Source of the DNA: Spirochaetota bacterium
GTDB taxonomy: Bacteria; Spirochaetota; UBA4802; JAFGDQ01
Direction: 5' to 3'
DNA: 64,000 bases
Assembly (NCBI GenBank): GCA_043803405.1
Contig: JAZDKB010000015.1
Coordinates: 174,780 to 238,779 of the forward strand
The position numbers were made by a program, and so were the translations under genes. Positions 43,901 to 59,062 of the stretch are shown here, piece after piece. The notes below the pieces were generated by a model. It searched no databases. It worked only from the letters and a program-made list of their open reading frames with translations, and was not told the origin of the DNA. How positions within the stretch are numbered: the stretch's first letter is position 1; every line of letters begins with the position of its first letter.

Positions 43901-45136
43901 CGATGTCTCTGCAATGTTCGTGGATACAATTATCTTTCTTTTTGATATGGGGCTGAATATCTGTTTCTGCTGGCCGGCAGGCAGTCTTGAATAAAGAGGA
44001 AAAACCGCGAAATTATATTTATTCTTTTTTTGAAGCAGATCACATGTCTCGCGTATGTCCAGCTCCGTCGGCATAAATATGAGTATATCTCCGCCCGACG
44101 GGCATGGATGCCCTAGTGCAGGATGCGGACAGGATGTCCTCTTGTATCCTGCAGACGGGCAGGATGCCCTAGTGTCGAGTACGGTCACGGATGACTGTTT
44201 GTGTTCGACCGACGGGCAGGATGCCCTAGTGTCGGGCACGGTCACGGATGACCGTTTGTGCTCGAAAGACATATCTTCTCTTAATAAAGATAATGCCACG
44301 TCGGCTGCCTGTTCAATATAATCTGCCGGAATATTTTCTGCATCTTCAGCAGCATCGGTATACCGGACTTCAACTGGATACATTTTTCCAGATACTTCAA
44401 TAACAGGAGCATTGTTGAACGCCTTTGAGAACTTGTCCGTATCAATTGTCGCGGATGTTACAATGAGTTTAAGGTCCCTCCGCCTGGCAAGGAGCCTTTT
44501 CAATATTCCCAGTATAAAATCAATATTGATGCTTCTCTCATGCGCCTCGTCTACGATGATGGTATCATAAGCATTCAGGTACGGATCGCCTGCTGTCTCT
44601 GCGAGAAGGATGCCGTCGGTCATTATCTTAATGAATGAATTCTCCCCGGTCTTTTCATCAAAGCGAATTTTGTATCCGACTGAACTTCCGACTTCCTCTC
44701 CGAGTTCTTCCGCGATCCTGTTCGCAATGCTTATCGCGGCTATTCTTCTCGGCTGGGTGCAGCCTATAATGCCGTTTATGCCTCTTCCTGCAGCAAGACA
44801 GAACTTGGGCAGCTGCGTCGTCTTGCCAGATCCGGTCTCGCCGGATATAATTACAATATTATTAGTCCTGATAGCTTCTATTATTTCATCTTTTTTCGCG
44901 GTTATAGGAAGTTCCGGAATATAAGAGAATGCCGGGATGTTTTTTTTACGCCATTCTTTTTTCTGAATAGAAAAACTTATCTTTCTCTTGAGCCTAAGGA
45001 GCTTATTTTTATCTTCAGTTCCGGATTTATTTTTTCTGCTTTTATGAAGCAGACGCTTTAATTCTTTTCTAAAGCCGTACCTGTCCGGGCTCATCACTTG
45101 CGGAAGCAGCAATTCAAGTTGTTTATATGGATCCAT
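40967..45136 (-). CDS. hrpA: ATP-dependent RNA helicase HrpA, carrying a 57-aa repeat-derived insertion
   Basis: GETGSGKTTQ, TQPRR, DEAHER, SAT, TNIAETSLT and QRMGRCGR; long HrpA C-terminus. Confidence 0.93.
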   Translation of the reverse strand: MDPYKQLELLLPQVMSPDRYGFRKELKRLLHKSRKNKSGTEDKNKLLRLKRKISFSIQKKEWRKKNIPAFSYIPELPITAKKDEIIEAIRTNNIVIISGETGSGKTTQLPKFCLAAGRGINGIIGCTQPRRIAAISIANRIAEELGEEVGSSVGYKIRFDEKTGENSFIKIMTDGILLAETAGDPYLNAYDTIIVDEAHERSINIDFILGILKRLLARRRDLKLIVTSATIDTDKFSKAFNNAPVIEVSGKMYPVEVRYTDAAEDAENIPADYIEQAADVALSLLREDMSFEHKRSSVTVPDTRASCPSVEHKQSSVTVLDTRASCPSAGYKRTSCPHPALGHPCPSGGDILIFMPTELDIRETCDLLQKKNKYNFAVFPLYSRLPAGQQKQIFSPISKRKIIVSTNIAETSLTIPNISYVIDTGLARMSEYSPTSGIVSMPIKAISGSSADQRMGRCGRVREGVCIRLYAKEDYEGRDRFTKPEIFRTNLAEVILKMTALRLGDISLFPFIDKPKQQAITDGYNTLIELGAIRKEDNSFSLTDRGRIMAALPVDPRLSRMLIEAGERKCMSEVLAIASMLSVQDPRERPPGKENEADKKHAAFTDRSSDFITLLNIWNKFTDLYNDNASQNKIRKFCRENFISYNRMKDIREIHAQLSGTLEENGLTLKKAVKKKHRFIKEYDLLYNAIHKSILTGFLSNIANKKTNNLFIASKQREVVIFPGSGLFGRAKDWIVCAELVKTSLLFARTAANIKPDWLEELAGDLCEYSYRDPYWDREKGDVYASEQVTLYGLEIIRNRRVLYGRKNPEEACKVFIRDALIEDMFTEIGLDGTAYAGKTAELFQLGREFQFLQHNVELIKNFMRIEKRIRKKILISRDDLYMFYADHIHDAYNIGTLDSLIKKNRNDDFLCMNDEDMLSSLPDYNKLKEYPETISINNITLDLLYKFNPGSEDDGITLIIPVSVLQSININLIESAIPGLYREKITELIKNLPKQYRRYFIPAADSVEKIIREMPKGNPMIASLQKFIYEKYNIEIPNQEWPPEKLPDHLRLKLSIRDKNGIEITSGKDAGNIIRELTEKYKARAFNEIKNKWEKEDIREWDFGDLPEEIKTKNENGLQFVFYPGLRKENGKLSLRIFMDMETAAGSHKEAVAELTAKELSGQLNIIKNELDVPDELKSAVMLFGGLSSIREQYHKRMMSKNFYKDIRSKQDFINNIKMMRESLREHGVHLRLLLIDVLENYTTATDKLGILKLQNKAIKPNLVFLNKIKDELNILVPRDFLLVYDDNELASLGKYIKALAIRAERGCANLQKDIQKEKEILLFKDALDHEYNILTKTTSNEKKKALRTFFWLIEEYKISVFAPEIKSGIKISGKRLEQVLEEIRKMN
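44097..44267 (+). repeat. three tandem 57-bp GGA-hairpin modules inside hrpA
   Basis: Units 44097-44153, 44154-44210 and 44211-44267, each GAC-hairpin-TAGT-bulged hairpin; homologous to modules at 53.7-59.0 kb. Confidence 0.92.
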
Positions 45137-45230
45137 GATTATATCTGTAAAAATGATTTATATTAAGAAGCTATTTCACTAGATAATTCCAGAATGAGCT
45201 AATATGGATATTATCTATTGAGCAGGCGTC

Positions 45231-45641
45231 TCATCTTCCGGGTACTGAACATTTCCATATCGGGGGCAGGTACCCGCTTTCCTCCCACATTTTTGCCGCC
45301 TCCTCAATGAATATCCCTTCCGGTTTGCAATGCTCATTGTCCAGCTCTCTCGGACGCAGCATGCGGCAGCCATAAGGCCTGTCCTCCCACTTCAGTTCGC
45401 AGCCGTTTTCCTTTAAAAAGATGCAGCCCACTCTGCGTACAGGATCTTTGTAATGCGGACGCACTACCCGCGCCTTTATGTGCTCATCCAGCAGCAGTAT
45501 AATAGCATACCTTCCGCTTTCCACGGCAGCCCTTACAGCCTGGGCAGATCCGAATTGTGTCGGCAAACAGTGACCGGACTGCCGCCGACAGCACTCGCCC
45601 ATACAGTGCGTGCACATTTCGGTTTCTCTATATCCTTCCAT
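45231..45641 (-). CDS. YkgJ-like Cys-rich (Zn/Fe-S) protein
   Basis: CTHCMGECCR...CIFL..GC.L..EDRP.GC; GGAGG RBS before ATG 45641. Confidence 0.7.
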   Translation of the reverse strand: MEGYRETEMCTHCMGECCRRQSGHCLPTQFGSAQAVRAAVESGRYAIILLLDEHIKARVVRPHYKDPVRRVGCIFLKENGCELKWEDRPYGCRMLRPRELDNEHCKPEGIFIEEAAKMWEESGYLPPIWKCSVPGR

Positions 45642-46103
45642 GCCTCCCCCTTCGTAAACAGCTCCTGTTTCATAACCAGGGCGACAAAATATTCTGCTAA
45701 AACTAATATTATTGGCCATCTTAAAAATACTAAAAAATGAATGCGATATTAAAAATTTTATTTATTTTATCAAATTTTTAAAGTTCCGGTAATTTTTAAG
45801 ATGATAAAACATAGTGATTTTTTATTTTTATTCTGTAATCTGCATTTAGTGAATGATTCGTAATCCGCTAAAACAGGCACTTGTTTTTTATAGTAAACTG
45901 TTTAACCTATTCTAATAAGCAACATATTTTTGTTAAATCAATATTACTTAAATTAATATTAAATTTTTTCTTTTTCTGAGAAATCCAAAAAGTTTAATTG
46001 ACTTTTAAAAAGCTCATGTTGAAATTCGACCAATTTAATCAAGTCATTAATACTGGGTTAACAGGCGTTATTTATATATTTTCGACATCAGGAGTTAGAT
46101 TTT

Positions 46104-46670
46104 ATGTCAGCAATTTCCGAATTCCGCAAAGGTATGGCTATCCGTTACAATAATGATATCTGGGTCATTACCGAATTTCAGCACGTTACGCCGGGCAACT
46201 GGCGCGCTATGGTGCGAACCAAGCTGAAAAATGCAAAGACCGGGCGAGTGCTTGAAAATACTTTCAGAATGACGGATCAGATTGAAGAGGTTCGCCTCGA
46301 AGAAAAGGAAATGCAGTATATCTATAAATCCGATGACGATCTATACTTTATGGACAATGATACGTTTGACCAGATCTTTATACCCGCGGACCTTTTAGGA
46401 GATCAGCAGCGGTTCTTAAAGGAAGGCGGCCTTGTCAAAATCATGTTCCTGGAAGGAAATGCCATATCGGCAGAACTTCCTGTGTCTATTGAGCTCCTTG
46501 TAGCAGAGGCCGATCCATCGATCAAAGGCGCCTCTGTACAGAATATTATGAAAAATGCCATTCTCGAGACACGTGCCAAGGTACAGGTACCGTCGTTTGT
46601 AAATGCAGGTGATGTTCTCAAGATCGATACCAGGACAGGCAAATATATGGAACGAATTTCCCGCAAATAA
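46104..46670 (+). CDS. efp: elongation factor P (atypical loop TPGNWR)
   Basis: EF-P sequence throughout (VRTKLKN..TG, FMD..TFDQ, QVPSFV..GD..KIDTRTG.Y..R); AGGAG RBS. Confidence 0.93.
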   Translation: MSAISEFRKGMAIRYNNDIWVITEFQHVTPGNWRAMVRTKLKNAKTGRVLENTFRMTDQIEEVRLEEKEMQYIYKSDDDLYFMDNDTFDQIFIPADLLGDQQRFLKEGGLVKIMFLEGNAISAELPVSIELLVAEADPSIKGASVQNIMKNAILETRAKVQVPSFVNAGDVLKIDTRTGKYMERISRK

Positions 46671-46936
46671 ACTATATATATTTAAAAATATAAGGCTGAT
46701 TTTCTTTATTCAGAAAAAGCAATTCATTTCTATTTGAATAATAAAATTTCTAAATCTCTTTTAATTCAATAATATATTATATAAGCTTAGTGATATCTTA
46801 TCTTAATAGAATTATTTTCCCCAGATAAAATAAAAAATAGAAAATTATATTGACCTTTGCTAAAAACCGGTTATCGTAGCTGCCATTGTTCCAATATCCT
46901 TTTAATCATATTGAAATTCAATAAGAGACAGGTATT

Positions 46937-47275
46937 ATGGATAAAACTCTTTCAATACAAAGCGGCCTTGGTAAAAGGCTGAACCAGGTAAAAAAGTTCG
47001 AAGAAAGAACGATTATGTTTAAAGGAAAAGAGATACCGCTGGTCAGCAAAATCACGATAGGCAGGGATCCGGATAATAACATAGTACTTAAAGACAAAAT
47101 GGTTTCACGGTATCATGCCGAGATTCAAAAGATAAAACAGGAGATTTTCGTAAGAGACCTGAACAGTTCCAACGGAACTTATGTAAATGACTTCGAAATC
47201 CCGCAGAATAAATACGCAAGGCTTCAGGGAAAAGACAGGATAAGGGTCGGCAAAACAGAATTGATTATAAGATGA
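46937..47275 (+). CDS. FHA-domain protein
   Basis: TIGR....D..VSR.HA...DLNSSNGTYVN. Confidence 0.9.
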   Translation: MDKTLSIQSGLGKRLNQVKKFEERTIMFKGKEIPLVSKITIGRDPDNNIVLKDKMVSRYHAEIQKIKQEIFVRDLNSSNGTYVNDFEIPQNKYARLQGKDRIRVGKTELIIR

Positions 47276-47403
47276 TAAAGGCAACGATGCTTTCCGCTTC
47301 ATTTCCTGGCAATTACCATATGGCTTAAAAGACTTTTATACCTGCATTCGGCACGGTACTGAATAATCCTTTCATACAGTTCAGTCAGTATTTTACTGCC
47401 ACA

Positions 47404-48726
47404 TTAAAACTTATGAGTAAACATAAAAATGGGAATTGCCATTGAAAGCACAGGCGCAGCATAATAGAGTCCGCGGTTATCACCGAAATATTCTGTAAAA
47501 TGATATTTCTTTGTAATGATTATCGCAGCAGGCACGCCGATGCATAAGCCTGCCACAATGCCCATCATTAATGACGCTGCTCCCTTTGCAAATCCGCTGG
47601 ATTTATCCAGGTTCATAAATAATTCATAGGCGATAAATGTAGTAATGCCAAAGAACAAAGCGCTTGTTGTTAAGTAAGTATTGAATTTTACCATGGGATT
47701 CGAATCGGGATTGTTCTTATATCTATGCTCATAACAATAGATAGATAACGAAATGTACATAAGGGACAGTGCGCCTGCAGTTACACATTCAAACATATTC
47801 TGTCTGAACTGCGATTTCTGTGCTACTTTTACTTCACTGTAAGCTTTATCCTGAACATTATCGCTTTTTTCTTTTAAGAATGATTCAACATCGTCGTTCC
47901 TGTTTAAAGCCGCGTAATATATTGCCGTCTTTTTATCGTTTGATAATAATTCGGCATCCGCGCCATGCTCAGCACCAAGCTTAACCAGTTTAAGGATTTC
48001 TTCTTTTGCTTCTGATGTATAATGATGTCCGCGGGAATGAACATTAGAAAGAATATGCAGCTGCGTAAAGCCGTCGCCCGGCCTTTGAATGTTCGCATCT
48101 GCCCCGTTATCCAGGAGGATACGGATTACATCTACTGAATCCTTAAACATGGCTTTCAATATTTTATAATACTTATCGTTTTCGCATTCGGATTTATAAA
48201 TATCGCGTATGCGCATCATTTCATCCATGCTGTGTACTGCCCTTTCCGTTGCAACATGCAGAGCTGTTCCAGCTTTCAGCTTATATTGGTCACCGCTGCT
48301 TACAGCATTTACTTTTGCACCCTGCTTTATAAGGAGTTCAGCAATGCGCGGCCGATGCCAGTACGCAGCAGCATGCAGCGGAGTCTGATTATCGTTTCCG
48401 TAAATATTTATCTTTGCGCCATGATCAATTAAAAGCTTTACCAGCTTTTCATTGCCGGAATATATTGCACCGAAAACAGGTGTACTGTCTTTTTCAAATA
48501 CTCCTGTATTTCTTTCGTTCACAGAAGCGCCCGATTTAAGCAGCCTGTTTGTCTCTTCAATATCCCCGCGTATGCATGCCTGGTAGAGCTGTGTTTCATC
48601 GTTATGTATCTGGGCAATGGAGTTATTTGGGAATAGCATGCAAACAAAAATAAATAAAGTATAACATACTGAGGCTATTATAATTCGTTTTGATTTCAGA
48701 AAAGATTTATTTGTATTCATGATCAA
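47404..48726 (-). CDS. exported ankyrin-repeat protein with C-terminal membrane domain
   Basis: Signal peptide, TPLHAAA/GA.VN repeats and a hydrophobic C-terminus. Confidence 0.85.
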   Translation of the reverse strand: MIMNTNKSFLKSKRIIIASVCYTLFIFVCMLFPNNSIAQIHNDETQLYQACIRGDIEETNRLLKSGASVNERNTGVFEKDSTPVFGAIYSGNEKLVKLLIDHGAKINIYGNDNQTPLHAAAYWHRPRIAELLIKQGAKVNAVSSGDQYKLKAGTALHVATERAVHSMDEMMRIRDIYKSECENDKYYKILKAMFKDSVDVIRILLDNGADANIQRPGDGFTQLHILSNVHSRGHHYTSEAKEEILKLVKLGAEHGADAELLSNDKKTAIYYAALNRNDDVESFLKEKSDNVQDKAYSEVKVAQKSQFRQNMFECVTAGALSLMYISLSIYCYEHRYKNNPDSNPMVKFNTYLTTSALFFGITTFIAYELFMNLDKSSGFAKGAASLMMGIVAGLCIGVPAAIIITKKYHFTEYFGDNRGLYYAAPVLSMAIPIFMFTHKF

Positions 48727-48906
48727 CAGTACCTTTTCACGATGTTTATTTTAATTTAAAATAAGCATTATTTAATTAGTTCTTGATGAATAATTCAGTT
48801 TAACACAGCAAAAGCATGGTTTTTCTCCCGCCTGCGGCGGGGGAAAGGGCATTGTTCACCAAAAAACTAATTAAATTTTCTACTTTAAATAATTCATTAT
48901 TAAGAA

Positions 48907-50166
48907 TCAAAAATGATATATTATTAATGGAATTAAAATTGAAGCAACAGGAGCAGAATAATAAAGCCCGCGGTTGTTCTTAAATGATTCACGATTATGA
49001 AAACCAATAATCCCACCTGCTACTCCGCCTGCAATACCACCGATAAGCATATACAGCTTACCTGTGTAGATACGGCCTATTGCAACACTAAAACCTCCTT
49101 CAACACCTGTAAAAGTATTAATTGCTACAGAAGCGCCGATAAGAGCACCTCCAAGAAATCCAATCGCGCCGCCTGTTACAACAGAATTAAAATTTCCCAT
49201 GGGATTATCGGCAGGATTGTCTTTATACCTGCTCTCTCTGAAATAAATCGTTAACCCTGTATAAATAAAAGGAATTGCAAGCAGTAAAGCATGCTCCCTT
49301 GTTGTTTTTAAACGCTCTCCAGTCCTGGCTGAATTGCTTTTACTCTTATACATTGCGATCTGATTGTTATCTTCAGAAGTAAGATTCATTCCATATTTTT
49401 TTATGCAATCAATAACTTCCTCATCTGACTCGTATTTAATGGCATATTGAAGCGGATTTATCCCTTTATCATTATTTATATGAACATCGGCTTTATTCTG
49501 AAGCAATAATTTAATTGCTTCAATATTTTCATAACGTACTGCTTCGTGCAGAGGAGTATATTTGTATTTAGTAGTATAATTGACCCTGGCCCCATTCTGG
49601 ATAAGCAATTTTGCCAGTTCCAGTTTTTCTTTTGAAAGCTTACCCTTATTGAAAATTATATACAGAGGGGTTTCATCCGAGTTATTTGCAGTATCAAAAG
49701 GAGCGCCTTTTTCTATTAAATATTTCGCAATTTCAAGATTGGAGTTCTTAAAAAAGTCTTTGTCAGAAAGGCTGTGAAGAAGAGTATCTCCAAATTTGTT
49801 TTTTATTTTAATATTTGCTCCATGATTATAAAGAAAATCCGTTATTTCATAACTGCTCTGCCCGTTATAAAGATGAATTGCATCATAAAGAGCTGTTTTG
49901 CCATAATAGTCGCGAAGATTTGGATCAGCTCCCTTTGATATAAGATATTTTACAACATGAAATTTGCCAAAAAGAACAGCAGTCTCAAGTAATGTACTTT
50001 CATTATAATTTTTAATATTTACATTCGTTCCTGATTCTATTAAATATTTTATCCTTTCAAGATTGCCATAGGCTGCTTCTTCAAAAATATTTCTTTCTTC
50101 TGCAATAAGACCTGTATTAAACACTATTATAATAACTGTTAAAATTAGATTGTTTTTTAATTTCAA
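48907..50166 (-). CDS. exported ankyrin-repeat protein with C-terminal membrane domain (paralog of 47404-48726)
   Basis: TTG start, ankyrin repeats and shared C-terminal motifs RYKxNPxxNPM and NRGLYYxAP. Confidence 0.85.
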   Translation of the reverse strand: MKLKNNLILTVIIIVFNTGLIAEERNIFEEAAYGNLERIKYLIESGTNVNIKNYNESTLLETAVLFGKFHVVKYLISKGADPNLRDYYGKTALYDAIHLYNGQSSYEITDFLYNHGANIKIKNKFGDTLLHSLSDKDFFKNSNLEIAKYLIEKGAPFDTANNSDETPLYIIFNKGKLSKEKLELAKLLIQNGARVNYTTKYKYTPLHEAVRYENIEAIKLLLQNKADVHINNDKGINPLQYAIKYESDEEVIDCIKKYGMNLTSEDNNQIAMYKSKSNSARTGERLKTTREHALLLAIPFIYTGLTIYFRESRYKDNPADNPMGNFNSVVTGGAIGFLGGALIGASVAINTFTGVEGGFSVAIGRIYTGKLYMLIGGIAGGVAGGIIGFHNRESFKNNRGLYYSAPVASILIPLIIYHF

Positions 50167-50271
50167 TTGTGACCTTTCCTGTTAATGGTTTAAATAATTT
50201 ATGAGCTATGTTTCTTTATAAATTTGAAATGTCTGCCTGCAATCAAATTATCAAGCTGCCGTAAAGTTATT

Positions 50272-50847
50272 TCAGCCTTTTATCTTCTTTAACAAAAAGG
50301 CCATATTTTCTCCCAGTGTTTTCATGTTAAGCATGCCTTCTTCATCTTTATTTACATCCCCTATCTCTTTTCCATAAACCATGTTCCAGTAACTGGCTCC
50401 TACTAAGAACATCTGCATGTAGTGAAGAAAGTGATTCATTGTATCAAAGGCATGGGTGGCTCCGCCTCTTCTTACTGCGACAACTGAACCTCCTACTTTA
50501 TGCTTAAAAATGCCTCCGTTTTTTGCTGAGACCATTCCTGCACGGTCTATCAATGCTTTCATCTCTGCCGTGACATCTGTAAAGTATGTGGGAGATCCTA
50601 AAATTATTCCGTCTGCTTCGACCATTTTATCAATACAATCATTAATACCGTCGTCATCTAAAACACAGTGCTTGTCCAGATTTTTCGCGCATGCCATGCA
50701 GGCTGTGCATCCCCTGACCGGCTTTGCTGCTATATTAATTATCTCGGTTTTAATGTTCTCTTTTTCCAGTTCACGGAAGACTGCTTTTATCAGCAATGAG
50801 GTATTGCCTTCTTTATGTGGACTGCCATTAATTCCTATAACTTTCAT
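50272..50847 (-). CDS. iron-sulfur flavoprotein / NADPH-dependent FMN reductase family
   Basis: GSPHKEGNT, CTACMAC.....C, GSPTYF and RRGG. Confidence 0.9.
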   Translation of the reverse strand: MKVIGINGSPHKEGNTSLLIKAVFRELEKENIKTEIINIAAKPVRGCTACMACAKNLDKHCVLDDDGINDCIDKMVEADGIILGSPTYFTDVTAEMKALIDRAGMVSAKNGGIFKHKVGGSVVAVRRGGATHAFDTMNHFLHYMQMFLVGASYWNMVYGKEIGDVNKDEEGMLNMKTLGENMAFLLKKIKG

Positions 50848-51258
50848 TTTATTTCTCCTTAAGTTATTAAGATTTTACAAAAAAGCCGGATGGATTACGA
50901 GCGCTGGTACTGACATTCTAAATCTAATCTCCTCTCTGCTTCTCAAACTTCCATTACTCAATCAGTGTGAACCAAAATCCTTACTTATTTTGTTACGTAG
51001 CGTAATAATATTAATGATAGTTTATAAAGATTCATTATATTTGTCTTCCTAAATGAAGAGATGTCTGCAAATAGGAATGCCTGCTGAACTGTAGGTACTG
51101 GCAGCGATATTTAAATTATTATCGGCTTCGATCTACACACGATTCTCTTCAACAAAACCGACATTAGAAATATAGTTATGCAATGCTTGTCAGAAAAACT
51201 CGATATATGGTTTTTACATAATTACTTTTAAACAGATATCTAATAAAATATTATTAAT

Positions 51259-51771
51259 TTAATCATCAACATCATGAAATAAATACCATTCATCTTCAAT
51301 GTGTCTAAGTGCACTATATGTTAAAAACTTACCTGATTTTCTCTTAGCTTTATAATATACATCTAAATTCTCTACAATAGCAAAATCCTTGGAAATTAGA
51401 GACTTATTTTTATAATAGGCGTATCCTTTTTCTTGACCACTTACACTAATACCTTGTGTATTATAAGTGAAATCAATATTATCTTTTTGAGATGAGCGGT
51501 AGAAACTTTTTATCCCTATTTTTTTTAAAATTATACGATATTCAATTAGTCTTTCTTTTTTAAGAATATAATCATCCGGGTCAATGAAATCTAATGCAAG
51601 TCTTCTAAGTTGTGTTTCTTGTTTTATCATTTTTACAAGCTTCTCAAAGTCGCTTTTATTTACTCTAAAATGATCAATCATAGAATTATCATCTGGAGTT
51701 TTTGAGCAGCTAAATAAAATCAAAATTAGCGGAATAAATAATAATAATTTTCTCAATATATTTAGCATCAT
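51259..51771 (-). CDS. hypothetical lipoprotein
   Basis: Lipobox LFSC; AT-rich ORF. Confidence 0.6.
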   Translation of the reverse strand: MMLNILRKLLLFIPLILILFSCSKTPDDNSMIDHFRVNKSDFEKLVKMIKQETQLRRLALDFIDPDDYILKKERLIEYRIILKKIGIKSFYRSSQKDNIDFTYNTQGISVSGQEKGYAYYKNKSLISKDFAIVENLDVYYKAKRKSGKFLTYSALRHIEDEWYLFHDVDD

Positions 51772-51997
51772 TAACTCTCTAAAGGGCGGCTCACTACATA
51801 CATTATTTTTATGTTGAGACTGTTGAAAAATCAAATTTTTTGAAAATTTGAAAAATTCGATTTCGATTACAGGCGATTATAAGCAATGATAGCAAAATAC
51901 GATTAACGAAAATTTTTAAAATTCAAAAAGCTACTATTTTTCAATGATCTCGTTAGAAATAATAAATTTAAACTAACTAAATCAATAATTCTTAATT

Positions 51998-53083
51998 TTA
52001 TAAATACTGTTTATTTATCATTTTCTCTGGTTCTAAACATAGTAAATATAAAATTATTAAAAACATAAATTCTATGGGTTTCATTAAGATATATATTAAA
52101 TCTGCTTTGAATGGTGTATTAATTTTTTTTGATAACGGATAACCATATTTGTCATAATTCTTACGAATCCATCTATGTACTTTTGGGAAATGATCACTTA
52201 TTAATTCTTCAAATGCATTTGCTATTAATAATTGTCTGTTTACAATAATTGTACTGCCTTTACGGGTTCCGAGTCGAAGTGGTTTAACAATTTTATTATG
52301 CCCGCTTGCTGCCACTGTACAGAGATAATGGCCATGATGCTCCAAATATGGAGGATGACTGTACTGCGAAAATTTCCAGGTTGTTGTTTCTGTAAAAACT
52401 TTTACTATTGAATCATGATCTTGCCCTATAAGAAGCAAAAGCATTGTCATTATCAAATATACAGGAATCAACAGCAGAATTACCCATACTGCAAGATTTT
52501 TTGATGAAGCTAATTTTTCGTTAATTAAGTTAAGTATTTTGTTATTAAATTGTCTGTTTTCAGAACATTTTGCTTCTTCAAAAATAACCTTTAATATAAG
52601 AAGAATCACGATAATTATTGTCATCACAGGAGCTAACATAAGAAAAATATTGTCACTACCTCCTACATTAAAATTTTCATTATCATGATTATATGAAAAC
52701 TGAAATATAACAGGAATACAGATGAAGGCTTCAATAAGCATCATCACAATACATGATACCAGAAAAAGAGGCGGCAATTTTCTCCCTTTAGTCCATATTT
52801 GAAAAGATGATATAGAACCCAATATAAAATAAGTGAGTAAAGTCAGCCAGTGTTTGTCCGCAAATGGACTATATGATTCGTCAACTGGATCAATAGCTTC
52901 CTGATATGAAGTATAACCTTTTAATAAAAAGGAAATAACAAATATCGCAAGAGAGGATAAATATAAAAAAAAGATAATATATTCGAAAATAAATTTTACT
53001 TTTCCAATAGAAGATCTGCTATATTTTAATATTAAAAAAGAAAGTATTAAGATACTTATAAATATATACACTAGAATTGGCAT
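51998..53083 (-). CDS. DUF6688-like membrane protein
   Basis: Several TM segments, then GHYLCTVAA.GH..VKP.R.G.R...VNRQL..ANAFE; family recalled from memory. Confidence 0.7.
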   Translation of the reverse strand: MPILVYIFISILILSFLILKYSRSSIGKVKFIFEYIIFFLYLSSLAIFVISFLLKGYTSYQEAIDPVDESYSPFADKHWLTLLTYFILGSISSFQIWTKGRKLPPLFLVSCIVMMLIEAFICIPVIFQFSYNHDNENFNVGGSDNIFLMLAPVMTIIIVILLILKVIFEEAKCSENRQFNNKILNLINEKLASSKNLAVWVILLLIPVYLIMTMLLLLIGQDHDSIVKVFTETTTWKFSQYSHPPYLEHHGHYLCTVAASGHNKIVKPLRLGTRKGSTIIVNRQLLIANAFEELISDHFPKVHRWIRKNYDKYGYPLSKKINTPFKADLIYILMKPIEFMFLIILYLLCLEPEKMINKQYL

Positions 53084-53196
53084 AAGTAGTATTCAGATAA
53101 AATTAAAAAATTTTGCAATTAATTTCTAACTAGTTAATTTAATTTGTTTAGATAATAATTTTAAATTATTATTATGTCTATTATTTTTTTATTAAT

Positions 53197-53442
53197 TTAA
53201 TCTGTAAGAAATGTGAACCGTAGGTTATAATGATTTAAATGATTGGAAAGGATTTTGGCACGGATGTCCATTTGTGCCTGACGCCATCCTTTCCATCCGC
53301 GGTTCAGACAACCAACAACGTGGGTGCTGTTATCAATTTTTTTATTAGGCTTATCAAGGCTGGTAAGAAGCTTATCTATCAAATCTGCTTTTTCTACAGG
53401 TTTCAGAGAAAGCGTGTCTTTGAGTAAATTATCCGTAAGCAT
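53197..53442 (-). pseudogene. truncated addiction-module antitoxin, no partner toxin
   Basis: The first ~37 aa (LSLKPVEKADLIDKLLTSLD) resemble 56685-56882; the expected W..E..R tail is replaced by unrelated sequence. Confidence 0.55.
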
Positions 53443-53564
53443 TGCTTTATCCTCTATCCGTTCTAAATAATTTTATTGATGATATTATTTATTATGAAAA
53501 TTGATTTTGTCAAGTTGTTTAGTTGAATGACATTATGAGATTATTTAATAATTGTATAACACCA

Positions 53565-53880
53565 CGCCCTTGCTCCTTCCATCGCCTTTCTGTTCCCGTT
53601 TACCGTTGCATTCGCCCTTGCTCCTTCCACGCGATTCATTTTACTCTGCGCATCTGCTAACGTGCAACCCGCGGCCGGCCAAAACGCGACAAGCATGGAT
53701 GCTTTAGTGCAGAGCGCAGGCAGGAGGCCTGTTTGCGCTCTGCCGACGTCCTGTCGCTTGGCCGGCATTAGGACATCCTGTCCGTCAAGCTCCGCTTGCT
53801 GACCTTTCGGCCTCCTGCCTCGGTCTGCATTCCTTACCTCCTGTAATTCGCGGAGAGGGGGGCGGATAGAGAGAAGTGTG
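53565..53880. repeat. intergenic repeat A, copy 1 (nested modules 53673-53786 plus extra 52-bp insert 53800-53851)
   Basis: Near-identical to 54456-54785, 57738-57996 and 58739-59062. Confidence 0.92.
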
Positions 53881-53923
53881 TGGGTAAAGTTTTTTTGCCT
53901 GTCAGGTGTTTGAAGATTTTTAT

Positions 53924-54151
53924 CTATGATTCAAATTCAGATCGCGGCAGGCCCGGCTGTCTAATTATAGACATCAGTGTTCCAATACGGATTTCTTTAT
54001 GATTAGGGACGGGTATAGTTATTGTAGAATCTGTTATTCTCTTTTGCATAAGAACATGGCTGCCGTGTGTTCTAATATAAACAAATCCATGTTTTTGCAG
54101 TATGCCGCAAACTTCCTTTCCTGAAAAAATTTTTAATTTACCCAACAGCAA
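53924..54151 (-). CDS. hicA: HicA-family toxin
   Basis: SGKEV..IL.K.GF...R..GSH...VPNHKEI..GTL.SI; start codon uncertain. Confidence 0.88.
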   Translation of the reverse strand: MLLGKLKIFSGKEVCGILQKHGFVYIRTHGSHVLMQKRITDSTITIPVPNHKEIRIGTLMSIIRQPGLPRSEFES

Positions 54152-54359
54152 CCTCTAACTGTGTTATGTAAATTTCTTCATGTAATCGTGTTTTAATTTC
54201 ATCAGGTGATGCGGCTTCAAAAAATAGTTCTAATGCTTCTTTTAAGTTATTTCTGGCTTCATCTACTGTATCTCCCTGGCTTGCTATATCTAACTCCGGG
54301 CACAGGGCAACGTAGCCGTTATCTTCTTTTTCAATAATTGCTGTAAGTTTTTTATTCAT
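54138..54359 (-). CDS. hicB: HicB-family antitoxin
   Basis: AIIEKE..GYVALCPEL..SQGDT.DEA..NLKEALEL. Confidence 0.9.
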   Translation of the reverse strand: MNKKLTAIIEKEDNGYVALCPELDIASQGDTVDEARNNLKEALELFFEAASPDEIKTRLHEEIYITQLEVAVG

Positions 54360-54455
54360 AGTATTCTTGCTCTTATGTTTATTTTTAACTTAACTATTAT
54401 TTACAGTTTGATAAATAGCAACAAATTTATTTAATAATTATTAACAACCACTCTT

Positions 54456-54785
54456 CCGCCCCTGCTGCTAACTCTGCCTTTTACGCGCCCGAAGCGTTTC
54501 TGCCCGCGAGCACCCCAACGCCCTTGCTCCGTTCGCTGCCTTTCTGATCCCGTTCATCGTTGCATTCGCCCTTGCTGCTTCCACGCGATTCGTAACACCT
54601 GGCGCATCTGCTAACGTGCATCCCGCGGCCGGCCAAAACGCGACAAGCATGGATGCTTTAGTGCAGAGCGCAGGCAGGAGGCCTGTTTGCGCTCTGCCGA
54701 CGTCCTGTCGCTTGGCCGGCATTAGGACACCCTGTCAGTCAAGCCCTGCTTGCGGAGAAGGGGGGCGGATAAAGAAAAGTGTGTG
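54456..54785. repeat. intergenic repeat A, copy 2 (nested modules 54627-54740)
   Basis: Direct alignment with the other A copies. Confidence 0.92.
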
Positions 54786-54898
54786 ATGTGTTCTTGTTTA
54801 CAGCACTGAATGTTTTATCCTTAGAGATGAAAGTTTCAAATAACATGTCTTTAATAAATTATAGATCTGCATGTTTTAATTCCTGATTGAATGAATTA

Positions 54899-56014
54899 TT
54901 ATACCGTCCATTCAAATAGCTTTTCAAAAAATTTTGTTGTTCTGTAAAAATGATTTCTGCTAAATATTTCGCGGCCTTCAGTTTTTTTCTCTACTAACCC
55001 GAAATACAAAGCAAAATTATTCAAAAACAGATAGGAAAAACCTGACTCAACAATTGATTGTTTATCTTCTTCATCAGATAATTCGTGAAGTATATACGGG
55101 AAAGCCAGGCCATATGCCTGAGCAAGCTCGACACCTGTTATAAACCCGGCAGCTTTTTTTCTGATCAGATGCAGATTGAAAACATATGATTGCTGCATAA
55201 ATCCGAAAGATTCCGGATATCTTGTGAGATAAAGCCAATTATATGAAGTTGCATAATAATGAAAAAGCATTTTATAGTTTTCATATATGTTGCTGTTTTT
55301 ATAGAGTTTTAAACCCTTTGCAGTAATTGTAAAAATATTGTGCTTTTTTTTCATTAGGCCTGAATTAGTAAAGAAAAAACGCATGGCCTCAATTTCTTTA
55401 ACCTCTGCTTCCATGCGGGGATTGATTTCATAAATCGAATCGTCTTTTATGAACTTTTTGTAGAATTCCTGAACGAGCTTTTGCGGGAAATTCCCTTTTT
55501 GTGTTGCTTTTATACCTTTTTCGCTTTCGGCCAGAGCATTAATAATATATTCAAACTGCCTGTATACCGGAGTTTCTTTTATGAGGTTTTCTTCTATTTC
55601 ATCCCTGAAATGGACAATCGGATTTTCCGAAAAATTATTTCGCAACACTGAACGCATTTGAGTAGAAGACAAACCGAGAAAATCGTCCTGAATTTTGCTG
55701 TTTGCGGCATTCATTTCTTTTTCCATAAATGCCTGCGCTTCATTTATATCATTGAATTCATGCTTCTCCATTTCATTTTTCATTTTATTAAGAACTTCCG
55801 TTGAGGGATTAGGCATGCCAAGGCTTTCCATTAAAGTTGGCACAGGACCGTTTCGCGTATCCCATTTAGCTACAAGTTCACCGTAATGCTCTATGCTATT
55901 TTCAATGCTTTTCTGCGCTGGAAAAGGAATGATATTATCATTCTTCAGACAGCAATGCTTGTACTTCTTCCCACTGCCGCACGGACATGGTTCATTTCTT
56001 CCGACTTTATTCAT
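54899..56014 (-). CDS. SEC-C motif protein
   Basis: N-terminal VGRNEPCPCGSGKKYKHCC; the remainder is uncharacterised. Confidence 0.8.
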   Translation of the reverse strand: MNKVGRNEPCPCGSGKKYKHCCLKNDNIIPFPAQKSIENSIEHYGELVAKWDTRNGPVPTLMESLGMPNPSTEVLNKMKNEMEKHEFNDINEAQAFMEKEMNAANSKIQDDFLGLSSTQMRSVLRNNFSENPIVHFRDEIEENLIKETPVYRQFEYIINALAESEKGIKATQKGNFPQKLVQEFYKKFIKDDSIYEINPRMEAEVKEIEAMRFFFTNSGLMKKKHNIFTITAKGLKLYKNSNIYENYKMLFHYYATSYNWLYLTRYPESFGFMQQSYVFNLHLIRKKAAGFITGVELAQAYGLAFPYILHELSDEEDKQSIVESGFSYLFLNNFALYFGLVEKKTEGREIFSRNHFYRTTKFFEKLFEWTV

Positions 56015-56177
56015 TAATGTTTTTCCAGAAATATTTAATAAGTTTTTGTATATTTACTTTTATTTTAAGACAATAATTAATTAAATAATATCAAGCGATT
56101 ATTATCCGGCTAGTGATTATAGACCTGTTTTTAACAAAATTATTACAGGTTATTCAGCCTTCTGTTTCACTACGCCA

Positions 56178-56369
56178 TTGCATTCGCCCCTGCTGCTTCC
56201 CTTGCCTCTCTGTTCATACCGGATGCTTGTCTGCAAATAACGGGAGCGACGGGCATGGATGCCCTAGTGTCGGACACGGACAGGAGGTCCGTTTGTGTCC
56301 GACCTACGTACGCGGTTCAATAACCCGGAGCGGTATCTACTCACGGAGCGGGGAGGGGCGGAGTGCGTA
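56178..56369. repeat. intergenic repeat B, copy 1 (57-bp module at 56248-56304)
   Basis: Aligns with 57512-57680 and 56957-57035; shares the CGCCCCTGCTGCTTCC start with repeat A segments. Confidence 0.9.
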
Positions 56370-56397
56370 TAGGGGGATTAGGTTACAACGAATGTCA

Positions 56398-56688
56398 TTA
56401 TTTCCTAGACTGCCAATACCATGGCTTTCTATGCATATGAGCTATTGCCCAGATTGTTACCATGTCTTTATCTATTGAAAACAATATTTTATATGGAAAT
56501 TTTGGAATGTATGCTTTATAAATATTATCTGCTTCTATTAAAAACCAATTGGGGTTTTTGATAATTTTTTTTATTTGAGTAATAACAGCTTTTTTAAATC
56601 TTTTTCCTAATCCTTCTGATTGATTTTCATACCAATCAATAGCATCATTAAATTCCTTGTTTGCTAGTTCATCTATACTAATCTTCAT
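56398..56688 (-). CDS. RelE/ParE-family toxin
   Basis: A..E...AI.WYE....LG.RF...KFPY.I......AIAH..RKP.YW. Confidence 0.88.
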   Translation of the reverse strand: MKISIDELANKEFNDAIDWYENQSEGLGKRFKKAVITQIKKIIKNPNWFLIEADNIYKAYIPKFPYKILFSIDKDMVTIWAIAHMHRKPWYWQSRK

Positions 56689-56882
56689 AAATATAGTTTT
56701 TCAAAATCAAGCAGCTTAGCTTTCCCTTCATTAACTGCTTTCATCCGTGATTTAACTTCAATAAGCCATGATTTGCGTATTTCTTCTTCTTCATGATCTA
56801 TGCTGGCAAGAATTAATTCTGCAAAGATCACTCGTTCATTTGGCGGCATTTCCAATGCTTTATCTAAAAGTCCTTTATCCAT
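56685..56882 (-). CDS. addiction-module antitoxin
   Basis: AL.MP..ER...AE..LAS.D......W..EV..R; GAGGAG RBS; 4-bp overlap with the toxin. Confidence 0.85.
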   Translation of the reverse strand: MDKGLLDKALEMPPNERVIFAELILASIDHEEEEIRKSWLIEVKSRMKAVNEGKAKLLDFEKLYL

Positions 56883-56956
56883 AATTATTTCTCCTCGTAT
56901 ATACTTTATATGTTACTCGGAACTTAAATTGCAACAAATTTTCTTTATTAAAATTG

Positions 56957-57100
56957 AATAACGGGAGCTACGTACGCGGTTCAATAACCCGGTGCGGTAT
57001 CTTCTCACAAAGCGGGGAGTGGCGTGGTGCGTAAAGATAGATTGGACGTAATTTATTAATTATTTGCTAAAACAATTTTCCCGTGCCTCTGCTGCTCCCC
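56957..57100. repeat. intergenic repeat B, copy 2 (partial, lacks the 57-bp module)
   Basis: AATAACGGGAGC|TACGTACGCGGTTCAATAACCCGG; 3' extension shared with 57680-57745. Confidence 0.85.
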
Positions 57101-57228
57101 CAATTAAACAAAATTATAACCGAACAATCATTTTTATTTCAGCTATTTTTAGCTGCATAACTTGGAAATTAACTAACACTTTAAATATAAATGAAAAATT
57201 GATCCAGATACTTTGATGTTAATTATCT

Positions 57229-57387
57229 CTAATCATTATCTTTAGGACATCCAAGAATGATGAGTTCTCCTGATGGAGTCTTAGTTACCAATCTCTGTTC
57301 ATTATAAATGGCATAATGGCAAAAAACATATCCATACTGATAGGATACATAAAGATTACACTTTTTACAATCTTCTAATAATTTCAT
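57229..57387 (-). CDS. 52-aa Cys-rich small protein (putative metal-binding)
   Basis: Manual translation: MKLLEDCKKCNLYVSYQYGYVFCHYAIYNEQRLVTKTPSGELIILGCPKDND*; same strand as the neighbouring cassettes. Confidence 0.5.
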   Translation of the reverse strand: MKLLEDCKKCNLYVSYQYGYVFCHYAIYNEQRLVTKTPSGELIILGCPKDND

Positions 57388-57511
57388 GATAGATCTTTCT
57401 TTTGAGTGTTTTTATTTTTTATAAGAGCATATTAACTAAAAGAAGCAATCTATATTTAATAAAAAGCAAGCAAATACATATGAAAATATTCCATAGCTTT
57501 TGCTTAAACCA

Positions 57512-57737
57512 CGCCCCTGCTGCTTCCTTAGCCTCTCTGCGCATACCGAACGCTTGTCTGCAAATAACGGGAGCGACGGGCACGGATGCCCTAGTGTCGG
57601 ACACGGACAGGAGGTCCGTTTGTGTCCGACCTACGCACACGCTTCAATAACCCGGAGCGGTATCTTCTCACGGAGCGGGGTACGTAAAGAGAGATTTGAT
57701 CTAATTTATTAATTATTTGCTAAAACAATTCTCCCAA
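57512..57737. repeat. intergenic repeat B, copy 3 (57-bp module at 57575-57631)
   Basis: Aligns with 56185-56355. Confidence 0.9.
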
Positions 57738-57996
57738 CGCCCCTGCTCCTTTTGCCGCCTTTCTGCTCCCGTTCGCCGTTGCATTCGCCCTTGCTGTTTC
57801 CGCGCGATTCATAACACTTGGCACATCTGCTAACGTGCATCCCGCGGCCGGCCAAAACGCGACAAGCATGGATGCTTTAGTGCAGAGCGCAGGCAGGAGG
57901 CCTGTTTGCGCTCTGCCGACGTCCTGTCGCATAGCCGGCATTAGGACATCCTGTCCGTCAAGCTCCGCTTGCGGAGAGGGGGAGGGTGGATAGAGA
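57738..57996. repeat. intergenic repeat A, copy 3 (nested modules 57846-57959)
   Basis: Direct alignment with the other A copies. Confidence 0.92.
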
Positions 57997-58022
57997 AAAC
58001 AATATAGAAGTAATTGAAAGTT

Positions 58023-58364
58023 TTATTTGGTAATTCCGATAAGAGACTCAACAACTTTTCTTAATTCGGGTATATGGAGTTTAATGGTTTCACTGATTAT
58101 TTTAATATCAATATCTTCGTAGCCATGAACTATTCTATTGCGGAGGCCGATAATTTTGGAACTTGGCAATTCATTTAAAATATTTGTATTTTCAATTTTA
58201 TTAACTGCTTCACCGATCTGAGTGATACACATCATTATTGCATATTCGCCCTCAATATCAGAAAGAGTCTTCTCAATTGTGCCATGTTTTTCAACAATAA
58301 TGTTAATATCACTGATATATTTTAATATCAATTCCAATTTGGCAAGATCGCTTCTTTTAAACAT
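58023..58364 (-). CDS. HepT-like (DUF86/HEPN) RNase toxin
   Basis: QIGEA and the RNRIVHGY (RX4HXY) motif. Confidence 0.88.
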   Translation of the reverse strand: MFKRSDLAKLELILKYISDINIIVEKHGTIEKTLSDIEGEYAIMMCITQIGEAVNKIENTNILNELPSSKIIGLRNRIVHGYEDIDIKIISETIKLHIPELRKVVESLIGITK

Positions 58365-58665
58365 ACATAACTTCCGGGAGAATATATTTCTTGCCTATCT
58401 CATTTAATGCATTTTTATTCGCCAGATCAATTTCCATTCCGAGCTCTTTTTTAAATTCTTTTTCTATCTGCTCAATTACCGGTATTACATCCCAACCCGG
58501 ATATTTTTTATAAAAGCTGTCAGTCATTTCATACAATATATCAATATCGCTATTTTCGGTTTCTTCTCCGCGTACGTATGAGCCGAAGACACCAAGGATT
58601 ATAAAACCCTCAGGTTCGTATTTGCTCTTTAAATTTTTTATTTTATTTATTACTGTAGTATTCAT
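58357..58665 (-). CDS. MntA-like minimal nucleotidyltransferase antitoxin
   Basis: VFGSYVRGE....SDIDIL; overlaps the HEPN gene. Confidence 0.88.
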   Translation of the reverse strand: MNTTVINKIKNLKSKYEPEGFIILGVFGSYVRGEETENSDIDILYEMTDSFYKKYPGWDVIPVIEQIEKEFKKELGMEIDLANKNALNEIGKKYILPEVMYV

Positions 58666-58738
58666 ATTTTAAACTTAATTTATTCAATTTACATGTACTA
58701 ATACTTAAAAATAATTTTTGTCAAGTTGTTTAATCATA

Positions 58739-59062
58739 CCGCCCCTGCTGCTAACTATACCTTTTGCGCGCTCCGAAGCGTTTCTGCCCGCGAGCACCCC
58801 AACGCCATTGCTCCTTTCGCCGCCTTTCTGTTCCCGTTTGCCGTTGCATTCGCCCTTGCTGCTTCCATGCGATTCATAACACCTGGCGCATCTACTAACG
58901 TGCATCCCGCGGCCGGCCAAAACGCGACAAGCACGGATGCTTTAGTGCAGAGCGCAGGCAGGAGGCCTGTTTGCGCTCTGCCGACGTCCTGTCGCTTGGC
59001 CGGCATTAGGACGTCCTGTCCGTCAAGCTCCGCTTGCGGGGAAGGGGGCGGATAGAGAGAAG
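58739..59062. repeat. intergenic repeat A, copy 4 (nested modules 58911-59024)
   Basis: Direct alignment with the other A copies; ends 7 bp from the hsdR stop. Confidence 0.92.

What the first reader, a model, noticed from the sequence alone, without database searches (positions are those of the whole stretch)
44097..59024. A 57-bp structured, apparently mobile two-hairpin module with covarying stems (at least 13 copies)
Seen: the module is GAC + hairpin 1 + TA(G/A)T + ~9-bp outer stem + inner hairpin + T-rich 3' bulge + outer stem + 1 nt, and is exactly 57 bp in each copy. Plus-strand copies start at 44097, 44154, 44211, 53688, 54642, 56248, 57575, 57861 and 58926; four minus-strand copies enclose the repeat-A ones. 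Stems differ but stay paired. Hairpin 1: GGGC/GCCC, AAGC/GCTT, GGAC/GTCC. Outer stem: GTCGGACAC/GTGTCCGAC, GCAGAGCGC/GCGCTCTGC, GCCGGCCAA/TTGGCCGGC, GCAGGATGC/GTATCCTGC (G-U pair). Where hairpin 1 is 1 nt shorter the second arm is 1 nt longer, which preserves 57 = 19 codons. Inference: selection acts on single-strand structure and length, so this is a structured RNA or ssDNA element rather than a plain repeat. No mobiliser is encoded in the window.
Basis: partly seen in the sequence, partly recalled or inferred. Interest (0 to 1): 0.9.

Follow-up and report, generated by a model that had tools for sequence, protein, structure and literature searches.

The report
Tiny self-nesting mobile double hairpin
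A 57-base DNA unit with two predicted GGA-tipped hairpins sits at spots that are cleanly empty in sister copies and related genomes, inside other repeats, inside itself and in frame in a helicase gene, so it is a tiny jumping element related to the known TwoAYGGAY motif, likely moved as single-stranded DNA by an enzyme not yet identified.

Summary
Confirmed: nine plus-strand 57-nt units and four minus-strand units enclosing them. Stems covary (14 of 17 pairs). It is mobile: clean empty sites exist in the window, the genome and relatives, with no target duplication. Three tandem copies add 57 residues in frame to HrpA. That first base covaries with the linker (C/TAGT 87, T/TAAT 15, 2 exceptions of 104), in the register of RAYT guide-to-cut-site pairing. 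The 13 copies reflect about 4-6 insertions; the rest rode along in duplicated repeats. The family occurs in 80 of 122 genomes of the order and is 51-60 nt in metagenomes. It resembles the TwoAYGGAY core but fails that Rfam model and has no basal stem. Orientation is 33 sense to 35 antisense, against a cis CsrA role. No mobiliser is linked; DUF559-flanking repeats are frequent hosts. The scan reported the same kind of element earlier in Gammaproteobacteria. Verdict: new variant; probably an HUH-mobilised ssDNA mini-element; enzyme unknown.

The parts
44096..44152 (+). Module (C-GAC / TAGT type), copy 1 of 3 tandem, antisense and in frame inside hrpA; orthologous copy in G002, site empty in G001 and G005
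44153..44209 (+). Module, tandem copy 2 in hrpA (first base A)
44210..44266 (+). Module, tandem copy 3 in hrpA
40967..45136 (-). hrpA RNA helicase gene, 1389 aa; the three modules encode residues 291-347, just before the Helicase_C domain
53687..53743 (+). Module nested in the inner hairpin of an opposite-strand module (repeat A copy 1)
53674..53787 (-). Host module (T-GAC / TAAT type), 57 nt of its own plus the 57-nt insert
53798..53849 (-). Extra 52-nt two-GGA-hairpin insert of another subtype, present in only one of the four repeat-A copies
54641..54697 (+). Nested module, repeat A copy 2
54628..54741 (-). Host module, repeat A copy 2, hairpin 1 damaged
56247..56303 (+). Module in repeat B copy 1
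56963..56972 (+). Empty version of the repeat-B site (GGGAG^CTACG)
57574..57630 (+). Module in repeat B copy 2
57860..57916 (+). Nested module, repeat A copy 3
57847..57960 (-). Host module, repeat A copy 3
58925..58981 (+). Nested module, repeat A copy 4
58912..59025 (-). Host module, repeat A copy 4
53535..59048 (.). Cassette-like array: four ~276-bp repeat-A composites and repeat-B copies between small genes (HicA/HicB, SEC-C protein, ParE/antitoxin, HepT/MntA)

Best explanation
The unit is a 51-60-base non-coding insertion element with fixed ends and no target duplication, likely cut out and pasted as single-stranded DNA by an HUH/Y1-type strand-transfer enzyme encoded elsewhere. Shown: anatomy Y-NNN / hairpin 1 / N-A-R-T linker / hairpin 2, ending at the last stem base; empty and filled sites; nesting; tandem runs; in-frame residence in genes; covariation of the first base with linker base 3. 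Inferred: the GGA strand folds; the linker at the 5' foot of hairpin 2 acts as a guide whose third base pairs with the first base of the unit and whose invariant T faces the purine before it, so placing the left cut as the GTAG tag does for RAYT enzymes; the GGA loops are the protein-recognition mark; targets are short R^C steps, often in exposed hairpin repeats. A resident unit's own left junction is such a site, which would explain tandem growth. Most spread inside one genome is passive, as cargo of larger repeats. Odds: mobile unit 0.95; ssDNA-level mechanism about 0.65; HUH/Y1 enzyme about 0.45.
For: Empty sites: window 56963 vs 56247; junctions identical over the aligned flanks in G000 C7 vs C36:26491, G000 C9 vs G002 L076, and G118 L126 vs L130, where the empty site has no C at the junction and so fixes both ends; hrpA empty in G001 and G005. 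T-starting units sit inside hairpin stems that lack that T. First base vs linker: C/G 87, T/A 15, 2 exceptions of 104 cores; 93, 5 and 2 of 100 metagenomic cores, a set selected by a C/TAGT pattern; near-identical units at one host site in G021 differ at both positions together (L248 vs L249). Base before the unit is G or A in about 80% of 58 flank clusters and 63 of 82 metagenomic sites; base after it is C 58, G 13, T 11, A 0 of 82. Corneloup 2021 (PMC8266576, passages): CT and CA cut sites are chosen by pairing with A3G4 or T2G4 of the tag, and GTAG-to-GTGG moves the cut to CC. IS200/IS605 Y1 elements make no target repeats (PMC3333891, passages). G-T over A-C on one strand. No bias to the transcribed strand, 33 vs 35 of 68. 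Variable units stand 5' of a constant unit in two tandem sets (L236; L252/L255). One unit lies inside a RAYT-like gene in G000 and one in a RAYT-like remnant in G001.
Against: No Y1 gene is linked: 0 of 30 Y1 loci in five module-rich genomes and 1 weak hit in 29 RAYT loci carry a unit. No co-occurrence across 122 genomes (RAYT query p=0.25; PF01797 p=0.78); G002, with 28 matches, has no PF01797 hit at 1e-5, though one RAYT-like hit. The RAYTs of G000 have their own GTAG repeats. For T/TAAT units the target base after the cut is not T (C4, G4, T2, A1), so the guide pair does not predict target choice; it may be only a structural pair at the foot of hairpin 1. G, not A, dominates opposite the invariant T. 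One host family fits the boundary only with a 1-nt discrepancy (L049/L050). In hrpA the shared, older unit is the 5' one, against 5' addition. No replication-strand preference is visible among 13 loci of G000 (my count). No excised circle or reaction was observed.
Confidence: 0.5

Rival explanations
1. The unit works as RNA: its two CANGGANG-like loops bind a CsrA dimer, and it either spreads through an RNA intermediate or is kept as a mobile CsrA-binding tag.
For: Loops are A(N)GGA(N) closed by C-G (my parser required GGA, so this count is circular, but the first 17 copies share it). Gardner and Eldai (PMC4333381, passages) propose CsrA binding for TwoAYGGAY. csrA is present in G000, beside a fliW-like gene by my reading. 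Metagenomic variants carry tandem-GA-type internal loops. G-U bias fits RNA as well as DNA.
Against: Orientation 33 sense vs 35 antisense; antisense in hrpA and in the RAYT gene. csrA is in 113 of 122 genomes and does not track the unit (p=0.49). Older copies in G001/G002 have decayed loops or closing pairs. No reverse transcriptase among neighbours. Uniform ends without duplication or 5' truncation are not typical of retro-insertion (own knowledge).
Confidence: 0.2
2. The unit enters at nicks made by the small DUF559 (Vsr-like) nuclease, or similar repeat-linked nucleases, in their own flanking hairpin repeats; DUF559 would be the mobiliser or its helper.
For: In the same five genomes, 4 strong and 1 weak of 20 DUF559 loci carry a unit within about 200 bp of the gene, against 0 of 30 Y1 loci (p=0.02 or 0.007). 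Many units sit at one fixed spot at the 3' foot of the hairpin of DUF559-type repeats. Genome co-occurrence 58/22/22/20, p=0.03.
Against: Five families were tested, so p=0.03 does not survive correction, and kin are not independent. 22 module-positive genomes have no DUF559 hit, including G048 with 10 matches. Units also sit in hrpA, RAYT genes, other repeats and each other. Adjacency is expected if the unit is merely cargo of these repeats. A plain nickase does not explain precise joining of both ends.
Confidence: 0.12
3. A recombinase (IS110-family or integron integrase) inserts a circular form at a one-base C core.
For: No target duplication; C follows the cut in 58 of 82 sites. G000 has an integron-integrase-like gene and IS110 genes. 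The window array is cassette-like.
Against: IS110 is in only 32 of 122 genomes (p=0.28). IS110 genes next to units in G118 share the same host repeat. Several clean insertions have no shared core base. The unit has no attC boxes, and attC-like sites near intI differ from repeats A and B. Target specificity is very short.
Confidence: 0.1
4. The covariation is mostly mutational (template switching that perfects palindromes) and copies spread only with larger repeats; there is no dedicated mobility.
For: Passenger copies at one host site show compensated stem changes, and unrelated long inverted repeats in G000 stay perfect while their sequence varies. Most copies are cargo: 22 and 16 of 122 parsed copies fall in two flank clusters.
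Against: 58 flank clusters, some of them variants of one host family; clean single-unit differences in hrpA, a RAYT gene and inside other units; the first-base/linker pair is not part of a continuous palindrome.
Confidence: 0.05

Closest known systems
TwoAYGGAY RNA motif (Rfam RF01731; Weinberg 2010, PMC2864571, supplement passages; Gardner and Eldai, PMC4333381, passages; bioRxiv 10.64898/2026.09.22.753630, abstract and passages)
   Same: Two sequential hairpins with GGA loops about 26-28 nt apart; second arm with an inner hairpin and bulge; multi-copy; the preprint suspects mobile-element-like expansion. G000 holds about 22 such elements, three of which hit the model, one over the cut-off.
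   Different: No common basal stem (flanks do not pair); loops are mostly AGGAN, exact AYGGAY in 26 of 104 first loops; no RF01731 hit in the window; defined ends, empty sites, nesting and in-frame gene insertions, which I did not find in the passages read.
REP / RAYT (TnpA-REP) and IS200/IS605 Y1 elements (PMC8266576, PMC3333891, passages)
   Same: Short hairpins, a four-base tag at the 5' foot of a hairpin, no target duplication, strand asymmetry, tandem clusters; first-base/linker pairing in the register of guide and cut site.
   Different: Tag is N-A-R-T, not GTAG; the unit has two unlike hairpins in one orientation and fixed ends; no transposase gene is flanked by it.
CGTC-tagged REPs and Rickettsia palindromic elements (PMC3733652, PMC10969869, passages)
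   Same: No dedicated transposase known; in-frame residence in genes, among them helicase and replication or repair genes.
   Different: The GAC lies 5' of the hairpin on the folding strand, the reverse of a CGTC tag, and varies (GCC, TCC, GAG); RPEs are about 150 bp; GGA loops are not described (0 occurrences of the term in PMC3733652).
CsrB / RsmZ-type CsrA sponges (consensus recalled; pairing of sites noted in PMC4333381)
   Same: Paired GGA loops closed by C-G.
   Different: No promoter or terminator tested or seen as part of the unit; random orientation; mobile; only two sites.
Classical MITEs; PATEs of haloarchaea (PATEs recalled, no call)
   Same: Small, non-coding, non-autonomous.
   Different: No terminal inverted repeats and no target duplication, unlike MITEs; far shorter than either.

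Membership tests
TwoAYGGAY (RF01731) | Score at or above the Rfam gathering cut-off (43 bits) | tested here: not met
   No hit in the window at gathering or at E<=10; genome search gives 3 hits, none in the window
TwoAYGGAY (RF01731) | Two sequential hairpins with AYGGAY loops | tested here: inconclusive
   Two GGA loops always, but exact AYGGAY in 26 of 104 first loops and 13 of 104 second loops
TwoAYGGAY (RF01731) | Common basal stem enclosing both hairpins | tested here: not met
   Flank positions 1-6 pair no more than shuffled (position 1: 23 vs 22 expected of 54)
REP / RAYT system | GTAG tag 5' of the palindrome | tested here: not met
   Linker is TAGT, TAAT, CAGT, AAGT or GAGT
REP / RAYT system | Repeats flank a cognate RAYT gene | tested here: not met
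   0 of 30 Y1 loci and 1 weak of 29 RAYT loci; the RAYTs read carry GTAG repeats
REP / RAYT system | Cut site chosen by pairing with the tag | tested here: inconclusive
   First base covaries with linker base 3 in 102 of 104 cores, but the target base does not follow the T/A variant
REP / RAYT system | Cleavage and strand transfer on ssDNA by the enzyme | not testable with these tools
   Needs biochemistry
IS200/IS605 non-autonomous derivative | No target duplication, no terminal inverted repeats | tested here: met
IS200/IS605 non-autonomous derivative | Ends shared with an autonomous element; fixed 4-5 nt target | tested here: not met
   No gene bracketed by module ends among 1185 ORFs in 299 loci; target only R^Y
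CGTC-tagged REP | Unpaired CGTC 5' of the palindrome | tested here: not met
   Arrangement is reversed and the bases vary
Classical MITE | Terminal inverted repeats and target duplication | tested here: not met
CsrA-binding RNA | GGA loops closed by C-G, csrA in the genome | tested here: met
CsrA-binding RNA | GGA strand transcribed and bound by CsrA | not testable with these tools
   No RNA holder listed; orientation is unbiased; binding untested

The most novel reading that the evidence does not exclude
These 51-60-base units are a class of minimal, self-guiding single-strand transposons, spread across several phyla. The linker pairs with the unit's own first base to set the cut, the GGA loops are read by an unrecognised enzyme (possibly with CsrA as cofactor), and they parasitise other hairpin repeats and add 18-19-residue loops to essential proteins. 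The long-unsolved TwoAYGGAY motif would then derive from such an element.
Probability: 0.3. Interest if true: 0.85.

Novelty: new variant of a known kind. Interest (0 to 1): 0.62.

Why it matters
TwoAYGGAY has been listed as an RNA of unknown function since 2010, and a 2026 preprint calls the link between its mobility and regulation unresolved. This relative gives what a bench test needs: exact ends, natural empty targets, a natural compensatory pair at the left end and a minimal 57-base substrate. If an enzyme moves it, it would be among the smallest bacterial transposable units, with almost no target requirement and no scar. It also supplies a route for in-frame peptide insertion into conserved proteins (HrpA, a DNA polymerase III delta-type subunit, acyl-CoA dehydrogenase).

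Tried and rejected
Rfam: nothing at gathering; only chance-level hits at E<=10, including Bacillaceae-1 at E=9.2. A strict genus-type pattern gave 5 loci in the GTDB scan, in two spirochaete genomes; it was too tight, as the covariance model showed, and that scan cannot be repeated, so named taxa for the wider family are lacking. Neighbour genes: 95 ORFs by Pfam and 1185 ORFs clustered show no constant partner; recurring ones are toxin-antitoxin genes, DUF559, RAYT and IS110, each in 3-4 distinct forms. Co-occurrence with RAYT, Y1, IS110 and csrA: none. Palindromic target or basal-stem model: rejected; 15 of 54 reconstructed empty sites fold at z<-2, so hairpin targets are common but not required. 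Opposite-strand IS608-type guide rules: checked by eye, no covariation. The idea that the RF01731-positive elements of G000 are this unit inside an inverted-repeat host: no empty host among 86 long inverted repeats, so not shown. Sequencing runs: no RNA holder listed; the one DNA run covers small pieces only and says nothing on excision. An AlphaFold job on HrpA residues 1-500 had not finished after eight collection attempts, so there is no structural statement on the insert. Papers: 9 searches were answered and one timed out; none returned a description of this unit with empty sites or nesting. The library lacks most subscription papers, and the preprint's supplement (figs S17-S29, Supplementary Text) could not be seen and may describe related variants.
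Full report
Setting. The window is G000:C15:174780-238779 of a 3.98-Mb, 39% GC genome. Its two same-genus relatives are spirochaetes by record title. The finding covers two places: three tandem units inside hrpA (40967-45136, minus strand), and a cassette-like array at 53.5-59.0 kb where repeats separate HicA/HicB, a SEC-C protein, ParE/antitoxin and HepT/MntA genes.

Observation. All nine plus-strand units and four enclosing minus-strand units are present. A descriptor finds 11 of the 13 and none in 200 shuffles. On 17 distinct copies, 14 of 17 pairs change on both sides, above all 500 shuffles and all slid controls; relatedness inflates such counts. Among 104 distinct cores from G000 and relatives (129 parsed; 4 dropped by hand as mis-parsed and 3 by a filter on the first four bases), G-T pairs outnumber A-C 31 to 8 on the GGA strand, which marks it as the folding strand. 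In 100 metagenomic cores the figures are 14 to 5.

It is an insertion element. The repeat-B site is empty at 56963 and filled at 56247 and 57574. hrpA is empty at this spot in G001 and G005. G002 has the same first unit with another unit nested inside it, 38 extra residues and an open frame; G000 has three units, residues 291-347. BLAST of joined flanks gave junction-spanning hits for 96 of 132 queries; many are partial or are other filled sites, and part of the output was cut. The decisive ones are identical over the aligned flanks: G000 C7 vs C36:26491, G000 C9 vs G002 L076, G118 L126 vs L130. In the last the empty site has no C at the junction, so the C before GAC belongs to the unit and nothing follows the last stem base. 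One host family fits only with a one-base discrepancy (L049/L050). The 13 window copies reduce to about 4-6 events: the hrpA site with its additions, the minus-strand unit, the unit inside it, and the repeat-B site; the composites were then duplicated.

Range. A covariance model finds 26, 21 and 28 matches in G000, G001 and G002 and none in G003 or G004; 80 of 122 genomes of the order; 16 of 151 of a phylum sample, 6 of them outside the order. A metagenome scan stopped at 123 loci; its 100 cores are 51-60 nt, with modes at 54 (34), 58 (25) and 57 (14). Their hosts were not identified. Units of 54 nt lie within open frames of an acyl-CoA dehydrogenase, a DNA polymerase III delta-type subunit (one and three copies), a RecA-like protein and a phosphoesterase, in both orientations; I did not fetch empty orthologues for these. 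A 56-nt copy lies in a YD-repeat frame of G000 that changes frame in that stretch. So codon-multiple length lets a unit persist in genes, but it is not a requirement. Strict patterns found none in viral contigs.

A clue to mechanism. The first base covaries with the third linker base: C with TAGT-type linkers 87 times, T with TAAT-type 15 times, 2 exceptions. Two near-identical units at one host site in G021 differ at both positions, so the switch is not one ancestral event only. The base before the unit is a purine in about 80% of flank clusters and faces the invariant linker T; the base after it is C in 58 of 82 metagenomic sites and never A. In RAYT systems the third and fourth bases of the tag 5' of the hairpin pair with the two bases around the cut (PMC8266576, passages). 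The register here is the same, with the linker at the foot of hairpin 2. This is an analogy, not a test: the pair can equally be read as an extension of hairpin 1, and T-type units do not choose T targets (2 of 11). In two tandem sets the variable unit stands 5' of a constant one, as expected if a unit's left junction is itself a target; hrpA shows the reverse.

Mobiliser. None was found. Neighbours are diverse. Y1 loci carry no units (0 of 30; 1 weak of 29), although one unit lies in a RAYT-like gene of G000, in frame but downstream of a frameshift, and one in a RAYT-like remnant of G001; G015 has tandem units about 300 bp from an intact RAYT. Presence of RAYT, Y1, IS110 or csrA does not track the unit. 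DUF559 genes do show local enrichment: 4 strong and 1 weak of 20 loci (22 fetched; one left out as overlapping, one counted once as a duplicate). Units sit at a fixed spot in the hairpin repeats that flank these genes. That may only make the repeats a successful host.

RNA or DNA. The loops fit the recalled CsrA consensus, csrA is present, and CsrA binding has been proposed for TwoAYGGAY (PMC4333381, passages). But of 292 copies, the 68 between co-oriented genes split 33 sense to 35 antisense (simple ORF calls, copies not independent), and older copies lose loop bases. A role on host mRNA is therefore unlikely to be what keeps the structure. A separately made RNA intermediate is not excluded. 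No RNA run was listed.

Known relatives. The nearest is TwoAYGGAY. G000 carries about 22 elements of that kind with long basal stems; three hit RF01731, one over the cut-off. The window's unit shares the core geometry but fails the model and has no basal stem. The 2026 preprint (abstract and passages; supplement not seen) infers mobile-like expansion but the passages read show no empty sites, nesting or ends. REP/RAYT, CGTC repeats, RPEs and MITEs each fail a defining feature (membership table). Earlier notes of this scan describe self-nesting GGA-hairpin units in Gammaproteobacteria and a TwoAYGGAY-like insertion elsewhere in this genome; these are unchecked leads, and I did not test those taxa.

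Verdict. A real, precisely bounded, non-autonomous mobile unit; a new variant next to TwoAYGGAY, not a member of it. Most likely an ssDNA mini-element moved in trans by an HUH/Y1-type enzyme (0.5), with RNA/CsrA (0.2), DUF559-assisted (0.12), recombinase (0.1) and passive (0.05) rivals. Interest 0.62: the kind has been glimpsed before, but exact ends, the end-linker pair and natural targets make the open question directly testable.

Noticed in passing
window 53535-59048: Repeats A and B carry attC-like boxes (GTTAGCAG, GTTATT on the minus strand) just upstream of small genes, without matching left boxes; the array looks like a decayed integron-type cassette run. An intI-like gene lies at G000:C9:269625-270626 with different attC-like sites nearby.
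   Followed up: partly
window 53257-53282: Right-half remnant of a module beside a truncated antitoxin-like ORF (weak HMM hit, E 0.59).
   Followed up: no
G000 C3:114662, C4:15744, C19:293582 and about 20 more: TwoAYGGAY-type elements whose 20-30-bp basal arms differ between copies yet stay perfectly complementary; one (C47:30770) has an insert in its inner loop.
   Followed up: partly
G000 C9:24563, C9:52348, C18:54888 and others: Two more families of long inverted-repeat elements with variable but perfect arms; they are empty here and filled with the module in G001/G002. At one site the insertions in G000 and G002 differ by one base.
   Followed up: partly
L534, L535, L530, L532; G000 C53:38074, C10:140483: DUF559 genes are flanked by their own hairpin repeats in a REPtron-like layout. 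My paper search listed no description of this.
   Followed up: partly
L002:949-1830 (G000 C18): RAYT-like gene with GTAG repeats on both sides and one in frame inside it, a frameshift near its start, and a module inserted.
   Followed up: yes
L007:602-940 (G000 C41) and G000 C19:410297: A GIY-YIG gene lies 65 bp from one module; a partial module sits in a TGTCA-ended palindromic repeat.
   Followed up: no
L236 (G015:C101:1-3900): Array of nucleotidyltransferase/HEPN-like gene pairs and an intact RAYT, separated by hairpin repeats in empty, single and double-module states.
   Followed up: partly
L001:1876-2142 (G000 C7): 21-bp tandem repeat just downstream of an IS200-like tnpA.
   Followed up: no
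G000 C18:86545-87268: fliW-like gene directly upstream of csrA, which has a C-terminal extension (fliW named by my reading).
   Followed up: no
L416, L439, L415, L417: Metagenomic arrays in which partial units interleave, with repeated hairpin-plus-linker pieces.
   Followed up: no
G118:C1:4337899-4417686: Nine IS110 copies cluster within 80 kb.
   Followed up: no
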